Of a DNA stretch of 64,000 bases, positions 4,701 through 48,162 are shown in pieces. How positions within the stretch are numbered: the stretch's first letter is position 1; each line of letters starts with the position of its first letter. The translations under genes and the position numbers were made by a program. The notes beneath the pieces were generated by a model, which did no database searches, had not been told where the DNA came from, and worked only from the letters and a program-made list of their open reading frames with translations. This DNA comes from Okamejei kenojei (lineage: Eukaryota), in the NCBI GenBank assembly GCA_035221665.1, contig CM069138.1:70246001-70310000 (forward strand). Direction: 5' to 3'.

Positions 4701-5120
4701 GTACGCTTTCTCTCGTTAACCAAATGTGAATGATTTGTTGTATAACATAAATGAAGTATAGATTAAAATGAAGAAGTGTACATCGGATCCTTCACTAGAA
4801 AAGAGAGATTAATTCTTTGAATGGGGAGGCATCATTCGAACTAACCCCACTCATCAAGAATTTTAACCCATTTTTTGTAATATAATCATTGTCCTGGTGT
4901 CATACAGCACCGAGAGGCCTTTAATTCACCTCATCCATGCTATCCAAGATGCACCATCTAAAATAATTATATTTGCCTGCATTTGGCCCATATCCTGCTA
5001 AACTTGCCCATCCATGTACTGTTTTAAAAATGTTGTTCTAGTACCTGCCTCAACTACCTGATCTGGCAGCTCGTTCCATATTGCCACCACTCTGTTTGTA
5101 TAAATGTTGCCCCTCCGGTT

Positions 5121-5374
5121 CTTTTTTAAAAAATTTAGTATTTTTATTAGAAGTCATATACAATAGGAATATACAATTTAGAATAATATAATACATTTCA
5201 TATACAACATATACAACTTCTTGCTTTTGAATTTAATAATATAAAAGTAATATAAGCTATAAATTCAAAAGCAAGAAGTTGTATATGTTGTATATGAAAT
5301 GTATTATATTATTCTAAATTGTATATTCCTATTGTATATGACTTCTAATAAAAATATTAAATTTTTAAAAAAAG
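5121..5374. repeat. Inverted repeat, arms of about 115 bp (5121-5235, 5260-5374), 24-nt spacer
   Basis: Arms are near-perfect reverse complements by direct reading. Confidence 0.95.
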
Positions 5375-6429
5375 AGAGAAAGAGAAAGTTAGGTAAGGTG
5401 GTGAAAGTGATAGTTCGTGAAAAGTACAAGAAAAGAGAGAAAGGAGGAGAGATACAAAAAATAAAAATAAAAAAAATAAAATTAACAAGAATGTAAAGTA
5501 AAAAAGATAATAAAAGGAAAATAAAATGGAAGGGATAGACCTACTTCATATTTTTGCGCACCCCTCACCCGGTTCTGAAACAGTTTATTTTCAGGATTAT
5601 GTTGCACCATATGCTTGTAATAAATCGATAAAGGGAGACAAAATCTTTAAGAATTGGTCTGATTTGCCTGCTAGGACGAATCTCATATCTTCTAGGTGTA
5701 ACAATTCAGACATGTTTGAAATCCATATTTTAAGCATTGGTGTTGGTGCATTTTTCCAGAATTTTAATATAGGTTTTTGCCGTCACTAAGCCATAATTAA
5801 GGAAACTCTCTTGGAACAAAGTCAGCTCAGAGCCGGTCTCCATTGTTCCAAAGATAATCAATTCTGCGATGGGGTTCATTTCTGTTTTAAATACTTTTGT
5901 AAAAATTTCAAAAATTTCATTCCAAAACTTCTGAAGTTTTATGCAAAAGGCAAAAGAGTGTGCTATAGTTACATCTTGAGATAAGCATTTATCGCAGATG
6001 GGCGAGACATTTGGAAATATTTTATTCAATTTAGTTTTCGAGTAATATAATCTATGTAAATGTTTTAATTGAATTAAGGTATGTCTTACATTTATCGAGC
6101 ATTTATGTACATATAGCAAATATTTATCCCATCTGTCTTTCAAGATATTTATAGATCATTCTTGTTCCCAGTCTCTTCTGATTGTATCAGACGGTGGTAT
6201 CTCTATGTTTAAAATGATATTATACAAATATGATATTAAATTTGTAGAATCCGCATTTCTGTTCATAGCTTCATCTAGTATATCTGAAGGCGAAGTTTTA
6301 TGTTCTTTTATATGTTTTTTCCAGTAGTAACGGATTTGAAGGTATTTAAAGTACATTACTTTTCAGGTTATATTTAAGTTGTAGTTGTTGGAATGATAAA
6401 CAAATTCCCATTTCACACATTTCTCCAAA
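5125..6429 (-). mobile_element. 5'-truncated L1 (ORF2 C-terminus plus 3' UTR), different subfamily from the full-length copy
   Basis: ORFs 5730..6143 and 6156..6356 (YFKYLQIR; CSINVRHTLIQ..LHRLYYSK..SPICDKC) are homologous to 13197..13883; AATAAA and A-tail on the minus strand; candidate TSD GGTTCTTT at 5117-5124 and 6430-6437. Confidence 0.9.
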
Positions 6430-10070: not shown

Positions 10071-13000
10071 ATGCAGGATTTAAAAAGAAATATGGGAACG
10101 AGGGATTAACCTTTTGCAGTTGGAATGTTAAAGGTATTAATGAACCAATAAAAAGAGGAAAAATATTGACACACTTAAAGGCAATGAAAGCTGATGTAAT
10201 TTACATCCAAGAAACTCACCTAAAGAAAGACGCTGAAAATAGGCTGAAAGCTAAATGGATAGATAAAATATACCACTCTTCCTTTACACACAAATCAAGA
10301 GCGTAGCAATATTATTTCGTAAAGGTACTTTATTTAAGCATATATCTACTATATCTGATAAAGATGGCAGATACATTATTGTAATAGGAGAAATAAATAG
10401 GGAAAAAATGATTTTTGTTAACATCTATGGTCCAAATTTTGATAGTCCTTTATTCTTTAAGAAAGTACTTAATAATATTCCAGAATTAACACACTACAAT
10501 TTGATAATTGGAGGAGATTTTAATTGTACATTAGACCCTTATTTAGATAGATCTTCAAAACAAAGGAAAACTAAATCGCACTCTAGTGATTTATTAAACG
10601 CATACATTCAAACGTCTAACATTAAAGATGTTTGGAGAACAGAAAATCCTACTGGTCGAGAATATTCCTTCTACTCGCCAGTACATAAAACCTATTCAAG
10701 AATAGATTACTTCCTAGTAGATGCAAAGCTTATCTCACTTACTTACGAATCCAAATATCATAATATTATAATTTCAGATCACGCACCATTAACATTTAAA
10801 ATTAAAATAAATGGTAAAACAGGAAATCTAGGACAATGGAAACTTAATCCACAAATTTTAAAAAATAAAACAACTCAGGAATACATCATAACCCAGATTA
10901 AGATGTTTTTTGAAATAAATGATCAACCAGAAATATCTCGCTCTTTATTATGGGAAACATTTAAAGCATATCTTCGAGGAATTATGATCTCTTCACAAGC
11001 ATTCCATAATAAGAAGATTCGGAAGGAACAACATGACTTAGAAAGGGAGATCAAACAATTAGATATACAGAATGCAACAAAATCAGATATAATAATACAT
11101 AATAAAATTGTAACATTGAAGTATAAATTAAATAAAATATATACTGATCAAGTTTTAAAATACTACCAACATACTAAACAATTGTTGTTTGAATTTGGAG
11201 ACAAACCACAAAAACTATTGGCTCGACAATTAAGGAAAATTGAAGCGGAAAAAATTATACATAGGATTAAATCACAAAACGGTGAATTATTAATACAACC
11301 CAAGGATATTAATGAAAGATTTATGCAATATTATAAAAATTTGTATACTGGTAACACAACAGTAAATAAAACAGAAATAGATGCCTTTTTTAAATGTATG
11401 TAACTTAAAAGAATTAGATTTACAAAATAGAGAATTTTTAAATGCCGATATTTCAATAAAAGAAATCCAAGAATCTATTAAATCTTTAAAAAATGGTAAA
11501 ACTCCAGGACCAGATGGTATAGGCTCGGAATTTTATAAAATTTTTCATGCCCAAATGGTCCCATATTTAAAATCATTATATGAACAGATATATATACAAG
11601 AGAAATTACCAGACACATTGAACGAATCTATTATAACACTTATACCCAAAATAAATAAAGATTTGGATGATCCAGGATCGTATAGAGCAATTGCTTTATT
11701 AAATACCGATCAAAAAATTTTAACAAAAATTCTTGCACAAAGACTAAGCAAAATTGTTAATGAATTAATTCATCCCGATCAAACAGGATTTATACCTAAA
11801 AGATATTCTTCATATAATTTAAGACGGTTATTTAATATTATATACTCGAAAAGAAGTGATAAAAAAGACTTAGTAGTCATCTCGTTGGATGCAGAAAAAG
11901 CTTTTGACCAGGTGGAATGGCCTTATCTATTTTCGGTGATGGAAGCCTTTAAGCTTGGTGATAAGTTTACTACTTGGATTAAATTATTATACGCAAATCC
12001 AACAGCTAGAATAATAACAAATTATATGTTATCAACTAAGTTTAGTTTATCTCGAGGTTGTAGACAAGGCTGTCCTTTATCACCATTACTGTTTGCGTTA
12101 GCAATCGAACCCCTTGCTCAAAGGGTAAGACTACATCCAGAAATATATGGATACGATACTAAAGATACTAAGAATAAAATCTCGTTATATGCGGACGATA
12201 TACTACTTTATATTACAAAACCGGAAATAAGTATCTGTAATTTGTTAAAACTAATAACGGAATTTGGTTTAATTTCAGGATATAGCATCAATTGGAATAA
12301 AAGTGAACTTATGCCAATAACCATGAATAATTTACAGATATTACAACAATTTCCTTTCAAGATAACAAATGAAAATATTAAATATCTTGGTATTTTTGTT
12401 ACAAAAGATTTGACTCTTATTTAAATCTAATTTCCCGTTATTATTGAATAAATTAAATAAAAATATCTTATATTGGAAAAGCTTACCTATCTCAATGTTA
12501 GGTAAAATAAACGCAATAAAAATGATTTTCCTCCCACAATTATTATATTTATTTCAATCAATCCCGATATATCTTTCTAAAAATTTCTTTAAAAAAGTAG
12601 ACTCAATAGTCACTAACTTTATTTGGGACTACAAAAATCATAGAATAAATAAAAAACATTTATGTAAAGCTAAAATAAACGGGGGTTTAGCTTTACCAAA
12701 TTTATGTTCTATTATTGGGCAGTTAATATTAGAAATATGAATTTTTGGTTAGGAGAAATAGATAATAAACCAAATTGGTTAAAAATGGAAAGAGAAGACT
12801 GTTTTCCATTTGAAATTAGCTCTATAATATTTGCTAATATTAATGTACCTAAGAAAACTTATAGCGAAAATCTAATAATAGAAAGTGGAATACGTATTTG
12901 GAAACAAATAAAGAAAACACTAAAACTAAAATTTATACCGCTAGCTCTTACAATTGCCAATAATTTTACGTTTAAACCGTCAATGATGGATAAAGCTTTT

Positions 13001-13883
13001 ATAACAATGGAAAAATAAAGGAATTCTAAACATAGGGGATCTCTATAAGGATAACTCATTTCTTTCATTTCAAGATTTACAACAAACCTACGGGCTTCAT
13101 AATAATGAATATTTCAGATATTTACAAATCAGAAATTATATTTCCGCAAATACACAAGAACTTAGAAATAGAAAGAGTGAAATTTTAGATGAATGCTTGA
13201 ATAAACACCCAAATACAGAAAAAATGATATCATACATTTATAACATTTTGTTGGAAAGTGATATCCCATCATCGGAAATACATAGACAGCGCTGGGAAAA
13301 TGAATTAAGTCAAATAATAAGTCCAGAAATATGGGAAGAAAGCCTACAACATATACATTATTGCTCTTTAAACGCTAAACATGCACTTATACAGTTTAAA
13401 ATCTTACATAGATTACATTATTCTAAATCTAAACTACATAATATATTTCCAAAACTATCACCTATATGTGATAAATGTCAAATCATGGAAGCAACTCTGT
13501 CACACTCATTTACTAATTGTACGAAGATTTTACAATATTGGAATGAAATATTCAAAACAATCTCGAAAGTTATTAATATTACTATGATTTATGACCCAAA
13601 GTTAATCATACTTGGAATACCGGAAATGGAACAAATAATTACAAGGAATCATAGAACTTTTATCGACTATTCTTTAATAATTGGGAAAAAATTAATATTA
13701 AAATTTTGGAAAGGCCCTGTATCCCCAACAATTAAAATGTGGAATACAGAAATGACGGAGACACTTTACTTGGAGAGATTGAGACTTGCCCTCATGGACA
13801 GGTTAGATCTCTTCAAGGAGATATGGTCTCCCTATATTAAATATCTACAGGGTCACAACGGTTCGGCGCAGGGACTTGACTGA
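10071..13883 (+). pseudogene. L1 ORF2 (APE endonuclease, reverse transcriptase, Cys-rich C-terminus), frameshifted in this sequence
   Basis: SWNVKG, IQETH, GGDFN, SRIDY, SDHAP (EN); KTPGPDG, SLDAEKAFD, GCRQGCPLSPLLF, YADD (RT); CDKC...H...C. Confidence 0.95.
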
Positions 13884-14579
13884 GGCCTGAATATCTGAGT
13901 GGATGAAGAAATACACATAACAAATCATGAATGTATCTCCAAGATTGGATTACTTAGTAATACTTTAATCTCCATCAAACTTTTCATACCTTCTTTTCTA
14001 TTTTCTATTCCTTTTTTCTATCTCTTTATCTTTAATTAAGGAAAAAATTATAGAAACATACTATATAAACTTTTAATATGTACACACTTATCTCTGTTTG
14101 TATGAAAAAGATTATAGATGTCTTAAACTTGTAATTATATAAAACTATGTACTTTCAATTATACAATAACTATGAAATATAAAATTAACAATAATACAAA
14201 CATTATTAATATTTTGATAACATTATGAATATTAAAAAAAATGTTGTTTAAGATTGGGTACTACGTAGTTAAATTAGCGGGGATTTCTATTTGGTAATTA
14301 GAAGAATATCTATGATTTGAGAAATCTAAGTGTATTACTTATATTAGGAATATACTACATATACTCCCAATTATATAAAATAAATAATAACGGAATGTAT
14401 AATGGATAATACTACAATTATCATAAATAGTACTAATTAATAATCAATACGTTATAATTTTACACATTGTATAAATTTCAATGTCGTATAAGAGTGTACT
14501 TGGTATATACTGTTTCTACAATAAAAAAATATTTAAAAAAAAAAAAAACAATATATCCTCGTAAACTAGATGGTACCTT

Positions 14580-19872: not shown

Positions 19873-20088
19873 CTCACAGCAATATATTCCCCTCATGATT
19901 TTGTACAGCTCTATGAGGTCACCCCCACAACATCCTGCACTCCAAGGAATAAAGTACTAGCCTGCCCAACCTGTCCCCATTGCTCCAGCTCTTGAGTCCT
20001 GGCAACATCCTTGTAAATCTTTTCCGCACTCTTTCCAGCATAATGGCATCTTTCTTATAACGGGGTGACTAAAACTGAACATGACTGA

Positions 20089-20739
20089 TGTAAATAAGCA
20101 ATTTACAAACTCTTAAGGTGTGCAACATCTTTTAATGATAGCACAGGGTATTACATACATCTTCAAGCACTGGCTACATTCTTCTACTGAGCTGTACCCA
20201 GGAAGGGGAAGGCGTTATGATTACTGTTAACTAGGCGGGGTTAATGGGACTGAGGTAACTATATTATTGGTTGCATATAAACCATCTACATCCTTCCCCT
20301 TAGAAAATCAAAAACAGATTGTTGTCACGACAACAGAATTAAACAGCAGAATTAAACAAACTCGCCATAACGAACAGGTGGCTTGCTGACCCGGCCCAAG
20401 CGCGTACGGATGTCTCCCCCTTCCCCCGAAAGAGCAGAAGAAACAGGAGGACGCGAGGCAGCTGGGGAACCAGAGAAGGGTGGCGGAGTTCTGGTCTCCA
20501 AGTGGAGGCGTGGGTTCGGATCCCACTTCTGACACCATGTAAATAAGCAATTTACAAACTCTTAGGTTGTGCAACATCTTTTAATGATAGCACAGGGTAT
20601 TACATACATCTTCAAGCACTGGCTACATTCTTCTACTGAGCTGTACCCAGGAAGGGGAAGGCGTTATGATTAATGTTAACTAGGCGGGGTTAATGGGACT
20701 GAGGTAACTATATTATTGGTTGCATATAAACCATCTACA
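20089..20739 (-). mobile_element. Miniature non-coding LTR retrotransposon (TRIM)
   Basis: Two 202-bp TG...CA LTRs (20089-20290, 20538-20739; 3 mismatches), 247-bp interior, PPT (AAGGGGAAGGA, minus strand of 20291-20301), PBS TGGTGTCAGAAGTGGGAT next to the 5' LTR, flanks ACTGA/GCTGA. Confidence 0.93.
20487..20537 (+). other. Copy of the 3' half of mature tRNA-Leu(CAA) including CCA (extended PBS; not a tRNA gene)
   Basis: AGTTCTGGTCTCCAAGTGGAGGCGTGGGTTCGGATCCCACTTCTGACACCA matches the vertebrate Leu-CAA 3' half as I recall it (anticodon stem 3' side, variable arm, T arm, acceptor stem, CCA). Confidence 0.88.
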
Positions 20740-20925
20740 GCTGAAGTTGCAGCATCACCAATATCTTGCATAATTGTAACATAACATCCCAATTTTAATG
20801 TTTAATTCCCTGACTGGTGAAGGCCATTGCGGTAAAAACATTCTTCATCAACTTATCCATCTGTAATCCCATTTGCTGGGAACTATTTACTTGTACTCCC
20901 AAATCTCTTTGCTCTCCGGCACTCC

Positions 20926-23297: not shown

Positions 23298-23547
23298 CTA
23301 GAATTAACCAGTAGAACATTTATTCACAAGTCGAATGTGCAGACATTCACTGGAAACTGGATCGGATTTCACAAGCTTAGATTGAAATTGCTTTTTACTA
23401 AAGTTTAAAAAATATAAATGTTCTACTGGTTAATTCTAGTAGAACATTTATATTTTTTAAACTTTAGTAAAAAGCAATTTCAATCTAAGCTTGTGAAATC
23501 CAATCCAGTTTCCAGTGAATGTCTGCACATTCGACTTGTAAATAAAT
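23298..23547. repeat. Complex inverted duplication: 110-bp arms (23318-23427, 23438-23547) plus an overlapping 26-bp inverted pair (23298-23323, 23414-23439)
   Basis: Direct reading; 2 mismatches in the long arms, 26-bp pair exact. Confidence 0.95.
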
Positions 23548-43292: not shown

Positions 43293-43961
43293 AGGCCCTG
43301 TCCCACTTACGTGTCCTTGGCACGTAAATTACGCGACCTCGTCTTCACATCGAGGCGCACGGTCCCACTGAGAAACGCAAAGGTGTATGGAGTTGCGCAC
43401 GGTATCGTGTGGCACTCTGAAATTTTGTAGCGAATGAAATCTTCGCGCGCCAACGCCTGTCGCGTAACTGACAGCCAAAGTGGGACAGGCCCAAGACCCT
43501 GGCACGACGCAATGTCTCACCTCCTTCAGCAGCAGAACCAGGCAAACGATCGCCGAGCTCGGCCTGGGGCTCCCAGCCGTTGCGGTCCGGATCCGCCCCC
43601 ACTTCTACTCCCAGAGCGGGGCCAAGCAAATTGAAAATAGACACAAAATGCTGGAGGAACTCAACGGGTCTGGCAGCATCTCTGGAGAGAAGGAATGGGT
43701 GACGTTTCGGGTCAAGACCCTTCTTTCAGACTGAAGAAGAGTCTCGACCCGAAACATCACCCATCGCTTCTCTCCAGAGATGCTGCTGGTCCCGCTGAGT
43801 TATTCCTGCATTTTGTGTCCATCTTCAAATGAAGTCACATGCTCCAGACGGCTGTGCGGATAAATGAAGTCGCGCGCAACCTTCGCGGGACCGTCACGGC
43901 TCCACACGCCCACAAAGTCGCGTGATTAGTGTGCCAAGGGCACGCAAGCGGGACAGGGGCT
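43293..43961. mobile_element. PIF/Harbinger-like non-autonomous DNA transposon
   Basis: TIRs of about 45 bp starting AGGCCCTGTCCCACTT; TTA TSD at 43290-43292 and 43962-43964; sits inside a CR1 3' fragment. Confidence 0.85.
43631..43828. repeat. Palindrome of two head-to-head Penelope terminal repeats (arms about 99 bp, axis at 43730)
   Basis: ...gacccttctttcag-a-ctgaagaagagtctcgacccgaaac...; the arms are diverged reverse complements. Confidence 0.9.
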
Positions 43962-45735: not shown

Positions 45736-48162
45736 AAGATCAAAAGATATTAACTAAAATATTAGCACAAAGGCTAAGCACAGTTATTAATGAATTAATT
45801 CACCCCGATCAAACAGGATTTATACCAAAACGATATTCCTCAAATAACTTGAGACGATTATTCAATATTATATATTCGAAAAGAGGTATTAAAAAAGATT
45901 TAGTAGTTATTTCGTTAGATGCAGAGAAAGCCTTCGATCAGGTGGAATGGTCCTATTTGTTTTCGGTTATGGAAACTTTTAAATTGGGAGAGAAGTTCAT
46001 TACTTGGATCAAATTATTATATACTAACCCAACAGCTAGAATAATAACAAATCAAATGTTACCAACTAAATTCAATTTATCTCGAGGCCGTAGACAAGGT
46101 TGCCCTTTATCCCCCTTACTGTTTGCACTTGCAATAGAACCCTTAGCTCAGAGGGTGAGATCACATCCTGAAATATATGGGTATGATACTAGAGATACTA
46201 AAAATAAAATTTCCTTATACGCAGATGATGTATTACTTTATATCACAAAACCAGAAATTAGTATCCAAAATTTGTTAAAATTAATAACTGAATTCGGATC
46301 TTTTTTCAAGATATAGTATTAATTGGAATAAAAGTGAACTTATGCCAATAACGGTAAATAACTTACACATATTACAACAATTTCCTTTTAAGATAACAAA
46401 TGAAAAAATTAAATATCTTGGAATTTATGTAACAAAAAGATTTGATTCTTTATTTAAATCTAACTTCCCACTATTATTGAATAAATTAAATAAGAATATT
46501 TTATATTGGAAAACTCTACCTATTTCAATGTTAGGCAAAATTAAATATAATAAAAATGATTTTTCTTCCACAATTATTATATCTTTTCCAATTAATTCCG
46601 ATATATCTTCCTAAAAATTTCTTTAAGAAGGTGGACTCCCTAATTACTAACTTTATCTGGGATTATAAGAGCCATAGAATAAATAAAAAAAAACATTTAT
46701 GTAGATTAAAAATAAATGGAGGTTTAGCATTACCAAACTTTATGTTTTATTACTGGGCAGTTAATATTAAAAATATGAATTTTTGGTTAGAAGAGACAGA
46801 TAACCAACCAATTTGGTTAAATATGGAAAAAGAAGATTGTTCTCCTTTTGAAATCAGTTCAATAATATTCGCTAATATTAATTTAGGTAAGAGAACCTAC
46901 AGTGAAAACCCGATAATAGAAAGTGGAATACGTATTTGGAAACAAATAAAGAAACCATTAAAACTGAAATCTATACCATTAGCCCTTACCATTGTAAATA
47001 ATGTTACATTTAAACCCTCAATGATGGATAAAGGCTTTTTACAATGGAAAAATAAGGAAATTATTAGGATGGGTGATATCTACAAGGAAAACTCTTTTCT
47101 TTCATTTCAAGAATTACAACAAATTTATGAACTACATTCTAAAGATTATTTTAGATACTTACAAATCAGAGACTATGTAAAAGCAAACACACAGGAACTT
47201 AGAAATAGAAAGACAGAAATTTTAGATAAATGTCTAAATAAAAATCCGACCACAGAAAAAATGATTTCATATATATATATATAATATCTTATTGGAAAAT
47301 GATGTCCCATCAACAGAAATTTATAGACAATCTTGGGAAAATGAATTAGGTCAAATTATAAGACCAGAAGTATGGGACGAAAGTTTACAACATATACACC
47401 ATTGTTCGTTAAATGCTAGACACTCTCTTATGCAGTTTAAAATACTACATAGACTACATTATTCAAAATCCAAACTACATAACATTTTTCCAAAAGTATC
47501 TCCCATATGTGATAAATGTCAACATTTAAAAGCTAATCTGACACACTCATTTACAAATTGTGCAAAAATTACAAAGTTTTGGATAGAAATATTTAGGATA
47601 ATTTCGAATGTTGTTAATATAAATCTGACCCCTGACTCAAAGTTAATAATACTAGGAATATTGGAAACAGACCAATTAATAACAACGAATCAAAGAATTT
47701 TTATTGATTATGGTTTAATAATTGGAAAGGTCCTACATCCCCGACAATCAAAATGTGGAATACAGAAATGTCGGAGACACTCCATCTGGAGAGATTGAGG
47801 CTTGTCCTAATGGACAGGTTGGATCTCTTCAGAGGGATATGGTCTCCATATATTGAATATTTACAGGGTCAAAGTGGCTCAGTGCGAGGGCTTGACTGAG
47901 GCCTGAATAATAGAATGGATGAAGAATTACGCAAAATAAATCATGGTTATATCTCCAATGACGGATTATTGATTAATACTCCATTCACTTCCTTATTTTT
48001 TATATTATTTTTCTCTATCTTTTCCTACTTTATAAAAAAAATTAAAAAACTGTATAGAAACATAGTCTTAAATGTTAATATTAATATTAATAATATTATG
48101 AATGTATCTAATAAGTATTTTTTATTAATATGTTTCTACAACTAATAAAAATATTTATCAAA
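45736..48162 (+). mobile_element. 5'-truncated L1 (RT to 3' end), related to 7935-14547
   Basis: SLDAEKAFD, QGCPLSPLLF, YADD, SPICDKC; AATAAA at 48144-48149. Confidence 0.95.

What the first reader, a model, noticed from the sequence alone, without database searches (positions are those of the whole stretch)
20487..20537. LTR element whose primer-binding site is a whole tRNA-Leu(CAA) 3' half, with a substitution at tRNA position 58
Seen: next to the 5' LTR the tRNA match does not stop at the usual 18 nt (20520-20537, tRNA 59-76). It runs 51 nt through the T arm, variable arm and anticodon stem and ends at about tRNA position 36-38. The T loop reads TTCGGAT instead of TTCGAAT, so the change (20519, G) falls exactly on position 58. 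Known: m1A58 normally stops plus-strand strong-stop synthesis and causes misincorporation when RT reads through it; G37 of tRNA-Leu is typically m1G, a strong RT stop. Inference: this is a genomic fossil of an RT reading through m1A58 with misincorporation and stopping near m1G37, or of priming by an anticodon-cleaved 3' tRNA half. A long PBS could also help a non-autonomous element compete for primer.
Basis: partly seen in the sequence, partly recalled or inferred. Interest (0 to 1): 0.85.

Follow-up and report, generated by a model that had tools for sequence, protein, structure and literature searches.

The report
Retrotransposons record host tRNA modifications
This broken jumping gene is one of at least 350 in this genome that carry an over-long copy of their primer tRNA with changed letters at a few fixed positions, likely because reverse transcriptase ran past its normal stop and miscopied the tRNA's chemically modified bases, leaving a DNA record of those modifications.

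Summary
Observation confirmed and much extended. The element (20089-20739, minus strand) is a gutted Ty3/gypsy copy: 202-nt LTRs, PPT, near-perfect 5-bp TSD, and a 51-nt complement of mature tRNA-Leu(CAA). Genome-wide, 352 of 1167 exact LTR-PBS junctions run on into the tRNA. Position 58 differs in 62 of 100 copies (T>C>G), the loop C in 41 of 60, G37 in 13 of 16, G26 in 4 of 6; other positions about 1%. Ends pile up just before the loop C and G37. 165 of 174 junctions are distinct, with microhomology to internal sequence. So these are likely independent read-throughs of the plus-strand stop followed by misdirected strand transfer, not an amplified long-PBS family and not tRNA-half priming. 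The mechanism is published for HIV-1 proviruses (PMC12657518); I found no report of a germline, multi-site record in 10 searches. The scan earlier noted a different tRNA match (in U5) on other DNA, not this.

The parts
20538..20739 (-). 5' LTR, 202 nt, TG...CA
   Evidence: (D19); 98.5% identical to the 3' LTR
20520..20537 (-). canonical 18-nt primer-binding site, complement of tRNA-Leu(CAA) 76-59 including CCA
   Evidence: same 18-mer next to an LTR end at 1167 exact places
20487..20519 (-). 33-nt read-through extension, complement of mature tRNA 58-36 (T arm, variable arm, 3' anticodon stem)
20519..20519 (+). G at tRNA position 58 (host genes A): likely misincorporation opposite m1A58
20502..20502 (+).
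20487..20489 (-). 3-nt microhomology shared by tRNA 38-36 and the element's internal landing site; deletion junction that removes leader, gag and nearly all pol (about 4.1 kb against natural long copies with about 4.3 kb between LTRs)
20302..20486 (-). 3' end of the internal region, 94-98% identical to other family copies
   Evidence: query 251-651
20291..20301 (-). polypurine tract directly before the 3' LTR
20089..20290 (-). 3' LTR, 202 nt
20084..20088 (.). target-site duplication, one side (4 of 5 bases match the other)
20740..20744 (.). target-site duplication, other side

Best explanation
The element is a deleted Ty3/gypsy retrotransposon copy whose primer-binding site runs on for 33 more bases as the complement of mature tRNA-Leu(CAA), likely because reverse transcriptase failed to stop at m1A58 during plus-strand strong-stop synthesis, likely miscopied the modified bases, and likely then jumped by microhomology to an internal site before integration. 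Shown: the structure, the strand (tRNA complement on the element's sense strand, contiguous with the PBS), the mature spliced CCA-bearing template, the site-specific substitutions, the end pile-ups, the microhomology, the 5-bp TSDs and the independence of junctions. Inferred: that the sites are m1A58, m3C in the variable loop, m1G37, m2,2G26 and possibly a modified U20; that the over-long plus strand could not pair at the normal PBS and so primed on the minus strand further in, deleting leader and gag-pol; that integrase then inserted the product in the germ line. Each copy is thus one sequencing-like read of one primer tRNA molecule; the copies are by-products, dead on arrival, and have no function of their own.
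For: 352 of 1167 exact LTR-PBS junctions carry the next 8 tRNA bases; 9 of 30 in a sample chosen without regard to extension. Position 58 in the first 100 of 450 matches with 8 free positions, counted by hand from the listing: A 38, T 39, C 13, G 10; positions 57/56 differ in 11 and 7 of 100 (CpG decay, or the A57 genes L197/L199), positions 55-51 in 7 of 500 cells. On 165 distinct junctions: A 67, T 66, G 16, C 16. Variable-loop C: 41 of 60 changed in the 100-copy sample, 93 of 132 overall (T 82, A 6, G 5), neighbours 0-2% apart from the host A/G polymorphism, in both host isodecoders. Sixteen copies cross the splice junction into exon 1, so the template was mature tRNA; 13 of 16 have non-G at 37 (T 10, C 2, A 1); 4 of 6 that pass 26 have non-G there. 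Ends: 12 of 15 stop at 38 (p 1e-9 against the preceding 12 positions), 18 of 90 stop in the two positions before the loop C (p 4e-7). Junction microhomology mean 3.1 nt against 0.33 at random (52 of 174 could be mapped). Exact 5-bp TSD in 27 of 55 copies with both LTRs in hand; median LTR identity 97.5%. RT-RNase H-integrase order in natural long copies. The same kind of product is described in HIV-1 proviruses (PMC12657518, passages read). These positions are the known misincorporation sites of tRNA-Leu in human and zebrafish tRNA-seq (PMC5066629, bioRxiv 2024.01.30.575011; passages).
Against: No modification was measured in this organism. m3C in the variable loop is reported for Leu-CAG and Ser, not for Leu-CAA, in the passages read; C-to-U editing or unassembled T-loop genes could add to the T class. 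About 39% of copies keep A58, so some read-through may have been on unmodified tRNA. Only 52 of 174 junctions could be mapped to a parent, and 12 of those show no microhomology. One junction with a 10-nt homology recurs in 5 copies (L032, L057, L218, L219, L221) that share the first 258 nt, which may be a small propagated group. In 27 distinct junctions from metagenome contigs the extension is present but position 58 is mostly correct (A 23, T 4). The G26 and U20 claims rest on 6 and 3 copies. Position 58 and the loop C were scored as free positions when extension length was measured, which slightly favours low neighbour rates; one search is free of this for 58-51.
Confidence: 0.92

Rival explanations
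1. The element was primed by an anticodon-cleaved 3' tRNA half and the long PBS is its binding site.
For: This copy's match ends at 36-38, close to the anticodon loop, and most long extensions end at 38.
Against: Extension ends are spread from 27 to 68 nt; 16 copies cross the anticodon into the D arm; a binding site in the RNA would be inherited, whereas junctions and letters differ copy by copy. The end at 38 lies just before G37, which is miscopied in 13 of 16 copies that pass it.
Confidence: 0.03
2. A non-autonomous (TRIM-like) family was selected for a long PBS that wins primer, and substitutions are inherited variants.
For: The window copy is short (651 nt) with intact LTRs, PBS and PPT; one junction recurs in 5 copies.
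Against: 165 distinct junctions in 174 copies; four of the other five pairs are tandem or near-neighbour duplicates; no sibling of this copy among the top 40 hits; at least 28 LTR-end groups show the same thing.
Confidence: 0.03
3. The substitutions are ordinary post-insertion mutations, or come from host tRNA genes missing from the assembly.
For: tRNA arrays are often under-assembled (general knowledge); only 15 Leu-CAA hits were found. The T in the variable loop is the majority letter among copies.
Against: 62-70% change at two non-CpG positions against about 1% next door and 9% at CpG (binomial p below 1e-28); all four letters appear; ends pile up just before the same positions; the T loop occurs with both host isodecoders, so two missing genes would be needed.
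Confidence: 0.02

Closest known systems
HIV-1 proviruses from delayed (aberrant) second-strand transfer, Commun Biol 2025, PMC12657518 (matching passages read)
   Same: Primer-tRNA complement continues beyond the 18-nt PBS, varies in length (7-54 nt there), defines the deletion junction, LTRs intact; 5 of 44 carry a change at 58.
   Different: There: somatic, 44 sequences gathered from GenBank, 1 found in their own set, the change at 58 called a mutation. Here: germline-fixed, at least 352 copies, 30% of exact junctions, Ty3/gypsy, about 60% miscopied at 58 and three further sites read out, with stop positions.
m1A58 as the plus-strand strong-stop signal (PMC8599865 and PMC11251516, passages read)
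   Same: The normal stop is one base before position 58, which is where the canonical 18-nt PBS ends here.
   Different: [quoted passage not shown]
Pulsinelli and Temin 1991, deletions from errors in strand transfer in a retroviral vector (title seen in a reference list; text not held; content recalled)
   Same: [quoted passage not shown]
   Different: Single-round vector in culture, not an endogenous family; no modification map.
Misincorporation-based tRNA sequencing: DM-tRNA-seq PMC5066629, mim-tRNAseq PMC8062790, zebrafish tRAM-seq bioRxiv 2024.01.30.575011 (passages read)
   Same: Same set of sites in tRNA-Leu (58, variable-loop C, 37, 26, 20), same mix of errors and stops.
   Different: Here the reads were made in vivo by the element's own RT and fixed in the genome; the variable-loop site is in Leu-CAA, which those passages do not list as carrying it.
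Ty3/gypsy (Metaviridae) elements annotated as K02A2.6-like, probably Mag clade (clade name recalled)
   Same: RT-RNase H-integrase order, closest proteins in fish, corals, molluscs and a moth; short LTRs, Leu PBS, 5-bp TSD.
   Different: The window copy has lost all coding sequence; clade membership was not tested by a tree.

Membership tests
Ty3/gypsy LTR retrotransposon (deleted copy) | Two LTRs with TG...CA ends | tested here: met
   202 nt, 98.5% identical
Ty3/gypsy LTR retrotransposon (deleted copy) | PBS after the 5' LTR and PPT before the 3' LTR | tested here: met
   20537-20520 and 20301-20291
Ty3/gypsy LTR retrotransposon (deleted copy) | Target-site duplication of fixed length | tested here: met
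   window 4 of 5 bases; exact 5 bp in 27 of 55 extended copies with both LTRs
Ty3/gypsy LTR retrotransposon (deleted copy) | RT-RNase H-integrase order in the parent family | tested here: met
   Pfam on natural ORF pieces of L191 and L183; the window copy itself has no pol
Mag clade of Ty3/gypsy | Placement of RT in the clade on a tree | not tested
   only homolog names (K02A2.6-like); clade label recalled
Delayed second-strand-transfer product (as in HIV-1) | Primer complement contiguous with the PBS beyond 18 nt, on the sense strand | tested here: met
Delayed second-strand-transfer product (as in HIV-1) | tRNA insert marks a deletion junction into internal sequence | tested here: met
   window junction; 52 of 174 mapped, 51 land 160 nt or more from the PBS and one next to the PBS of an already rearranged subgroup
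Delayed second-strand-transfer product (as in HIV-1) | Template is the mature tRNA (CCA, spliced) | tested here: met
   CCA in all; 16 copies cross the splice junction
Delayed second-strand-transfer product (as in HIV-1) | Modified bases at the miscopied positions in this host's tRNA | not testable with these tools
   needs tRNA-seq with AlkB or LC-MS
TRIM / amplified non-autonomous LTR family | Many copies sharing one short internal region | tested here: not met
   no sibling among the top 40 of 3233 candidates; 165 distinct junctions of 174
tRNA-half-primed elements | Fixed, inherited binding site ending at the cleavage point | tested here: not met
   ends from 27 to 68 nt, 16 beyond the anticodon
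Independent processed tRNA pseudogene | tRNA copy unrelated to the LTR boundary, absent from other copies | tested here: not met
   352 copies start exactly at an LTR end; all 15 hits of the tRNA's 5' part are intron-type genes or their relics

The most novel reading that the evidence does not exclude
Tens to hundreds of LTR insertions per genome form a datable, single-molecule archive of the primer tRNA's modification state in past germ cells: it reveals an unreported modified C in the variable loop of tRNA-Leu(CAA), shows linked modification on single molecules (copies correct at 58 are more often correct at the loop C: 20 of 49 against 15 of 73, p 0.024), and fingerprints the error spectrum of each retrotransposon lineage's RT (58 kept in 22 of 68, 8 of 36, 18 of 27, 6 of 10; p 0.001). 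It also says that m1A58 is a leaky stop for these RTs and a major source of their dead copies, across animals (extensions in 27 distinct junctions from metagenome contigs).
Probability: 0.6. Interest if true: 0.85.

Novelty: new variant of a known kind. Interest (0 to 1): 0.72.

Why it matters
It turns a genome assembly into tRNA-modification data: positions, error spectra and stop sites can be read without RNA, dated by LTR divergence and compared between species, including ones whose germ-line RNA cannot be sampled. It gives an in-vivo measure of how leaky the m1A58 stop is for retrotransposon RTs, a point so far studied in HIV-1 and held there to block integration, and it names a common route by which LTR families make internally deleted copies. 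It predicts a variable-loop modification in Leu-CAA that can be checked directly. The 30% is a share of surviving exact LTR-PBS junctions, not a per-replication rate: solo LTRs are not counted and full-length copies may be lost faster.

Tried and rejected
ARAGORN and Rfam found nothing in the window; ARAGORN mislabelled the intron-bearing host genes as Thr by misplacing the intron, the anticodon CAA was read from the sequence. A primer-independent pattern (LTR end + TGG + T-arm complement) gave 589 matches against 18 control; 98 of the first 100 were this Leu PBS or close variants and 2 looked like chance, so no second primer type showed up, but the pattern only fits tRNAs with this T-arm and LTRs ending ACA. 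The subgroup whose PBS is followed by six bases matching tRNA 42-37 (L080, L081, L083, L086) is not a relic of read-through: the motif lies in the element's own inverted internal sequence (L312). A U5 motif complementary to the anticodon arm is confined to one large LTR lineage and its kin: 4 of 34 LTR-end clusters had a 7-nt or longer match against 4.5% by shuffling, so convergence is not shown. CpG decay and APOBEC-like editing were rejected for the loop C: it is not in CpG and the neighbouring Cs are unchanged (0 of 114, 0 of 112). Ten literature searches found the HIV-1 precedent but no report for endogenous LTR retrotransposons; the library lacks most subscription papers, two older papers were not held, and no supplements were opened, so an earlier mention (for instance in Repbase reports or Ty1 papers) is possible. 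Sequencing runs were not examined.

Full report
Anatomy. The window lies at G000:C8:70246001-70310000 in a 2.76-Gb animal genome. A 203-nt direct repeat at 20088-20290 and 20537-20739 resolves into two 202-nt LTRs with TG...CA ends, 98.5% identical, on the minus strand. The 5' LTR (20739-20538) is followed with no gap by the complement of tRNA-Leu(CAA) from the CCA end; the 3' LTR is preceded by an 11-nt purine tract; the flanks are a 5-bp duplication with one mismatch. The 247-nt interior is 51 nt of tRNA complement joined to the last 196 nt of the family's internal region. Natural long copies have about 4.3 kb between LTRs (L183, L184, L187) and encode RT, RNase H and integrase in that order, with nearest proteins named K02A2.6-like or Gypsy in fish, corals, molluscs and a moth: Ty3/gypsy; Mag clade is my recalled label, untested.

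Host tRNA. A pattern for the 5' exon gave 15 places, all intron-type genes or relics. Eleven have an intact 3' half and all of these have A58 and the variable loop (A/G)ACT. The window copy differs at 58 (20519 G) and at the loop C (20502 G).

The family. LTR end + 18-nt PBS occurs exactly at 1167 places; 352 of these continue with any letter at 58 and seven more tRNA bases, against 0 for the reversed control. In 30 copies picked only by LTR end and PBS, 9 were extended; the others had the normal leader (7), a recurrent inverted junction (4) or a junction at or just after the PBS (10), by my reading. With positions 58-51 left free, the first 100 of 450 matches gave at 58: A 38, T 39, C 13, G 10; at the CpG positions 57 and 56: 11 and 7 changes (some at 57 may be the A57 genes L197/L199); at 55-51: 7 changes in 500 cells (hand count). 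I fetched all 100 listed copies and 92 of the 94 places as new loci (the window copy was held; one tandem pair shares a locus). Among 174 distinct extended sites the loop C was changed in 93 of 132 that reach 4 nt beyond it (T 82, A 6, G 5), equally in both host isodecoders, while neighbours changed 0-2%. A pattern across the splice junction found 15 places, all LTR-adjacent, and a D-arm pattern one more: the template was the spliced tRNA. G37 is changed in 13 of these 16 (T 10, C 2, A 1); of 6 that pass 26, 4 are changed there (T 3, A 1); 5 end at 27 (two of them by homology to their own U5) and 3 at 28; the three longest end at or just before U20.

Where the copies end. In the 100-copy sample ends cluster in the two positions before the loop C (18 of 90) and at 38, just before G37 (12 of 15 that get there; the other three go 1-3 nt further, as chance would). 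For the window copy the last three matching bases are also the bases of the landing site, and G37 is correct, so the RT likely stopped at 38 or 39.

Junctions. After the tRNA part each copy enters gag, pol or the 3' region, sense or antisense, or other DNA; 52 of 174 could be mapped to six natural copies of the window's lineage, with mean microhomology 3.1 nt against 0.33 at random, 12 with none. 165 of 174 junctions are distinct; the clusters are four tandem or neighbouring pairs, one pair in non-element sequence, and one junction with 10-nt homology seen five times in two lineages, sharing 258 nt and then diverging, which may be recurrence or limited propagation. Of 55 copies with both LTRs in hand 27 have an exact 5-bp TSD (24 scored none, many from imprecise alignment ends), LTR identity 78-100%, median 97.5%, so events span a long time. 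The 174 sites fall in 28 LTR-end groups, and the share that keeps A58 differs among the four largest (p 0.001). Keeping A58 and keeping the loop C are weakly linked (p 0.024, one test, not corrected).

Mechanism. By established knowledge, plus-strand DNA starts at the PPT, copies the LTR and 18 nt of the primer, and stops before m1A58 (PMC8599865, PMC11251516, passages). The tRNA complement on the sense strand, contiguous with the PBS, is what running past that stop gives; copying a tRNA during minus-strand synthesis would give the opposite strand. The extra bases cannot pair with the leader, so the 3' end likely primes wherever a few bases match, deleting everything between; integrase then inserts the product. 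The substitutions sit at the positions where tRNA-seq of human and zebrafish tRNA-Leu shows m1A58, m3C e2/47d, m1G37, m2,2G26 and acp3U20 signals (PMC5066629, bioRxiv 2024.01.30.575011, PMC8062790; passages). The identities of the modifications, and the equivalence of this loop C to e2/47d, are inferred. Those passages list the loop m3C for Leu-CAG and Ser only, so its presence in Leu-CAA is a prediction.

Elsewhere. A scan of metagenome contigs gave 44 loci, 45 matches, 27 distinct junctions next to other LTR-like ends; position 58 was A in 23 and T in 4, three distinct junctions crossed the splice site with correct G37, and one ended at 27. The extension is therefore not special to this genome, but the error rate is host- or RT-dependent.

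What is known. PMC12657518 (passages) describes the same product in HIV-1: 44 defective proviruses with 7-54 nt of tRNA-Lys3 at the deletion junction, 5 with a change at 58. Pulsinelli and Temin 1991 is a recalled precedent in a vector (title only seen). So the mechanism is known. In ten searches of the held library I found no report of it as a germline, high-frequency feature of LTR retrotransposons, nor of reading several tRNA modifications from such copies; the library is incomplete and no supplements were read. The scan's index held one related note on another genome (tRNA match in U5) and nothing for this sequence or genome.

Verdict. Interest 0.72.

Noticed in passing
L091, L094, L110, L121, L127, L131, L172, L262-L270, L279 (last 25 nt of the 5' LTR): One large LTR lineage and its kin carry in U5, about 12 nt before the PBS, a 7-10-nt match to the complement of the tRNA anticodon arm (27-35); a second primer-pairing site is possible but not shown. 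Ten of the 16 longest read-throughs come from this lineage and two (L263, L267) land on this motif, duplicating the LTR end and PBS.
   Followed up: partly
L096/L097, L040, L334: Tandem arrays of LTR end + extended PBS, as if the extended plus strand jumped back into U5 more than once.
   Followed up: no
L002, L057, L073, L080-L083, L157, L242, L253: Many copies continue after the PBS into the antisense of their own pol or gag, an inverted segment that needs a second template switch.
   Followed up: partly
L066, L067, L071, L075, L089: Copies with a normal 18-nt PBS, or 1-2 extra tRNA bases, that still jump straight into internal sequence: second-strand transfer looks error-prone in this family in general (only 7 of 30 sampled copies keep the normal leader).
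   Followed up: partly
L032, L042, L048, L052, L054, L127, L173, L178 (after the tRNA part): Several extended copies continue into sequence that did not map to the held element references, some resembling the LINE-like repeats common in the window; capture of cellular RNA is possible.
   Followed up: no
G000:C13:63172600-63196700 (L194-L201, L207): Cluster of nine intron-bearing Leu-CAA genes and relics; one (L200) has a repeat inserted in its intron, one (L207) an internal deletion; ARAGORN mislabels the intact ones as Thr.
   Followed up: partly
window 5120-5375, 23318-23547, 43631-43828: Three long near-perfect inverted repeats with short spacers (arms 116, 110 and 95 nt; 98, 98 and 85% complementary).
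   Followed up: no
window 11708-13988 and 45738-48004: A 2.3-kb AT-rich segment duplicated 34 kb apart at about 80% identity.
   Followed up: no
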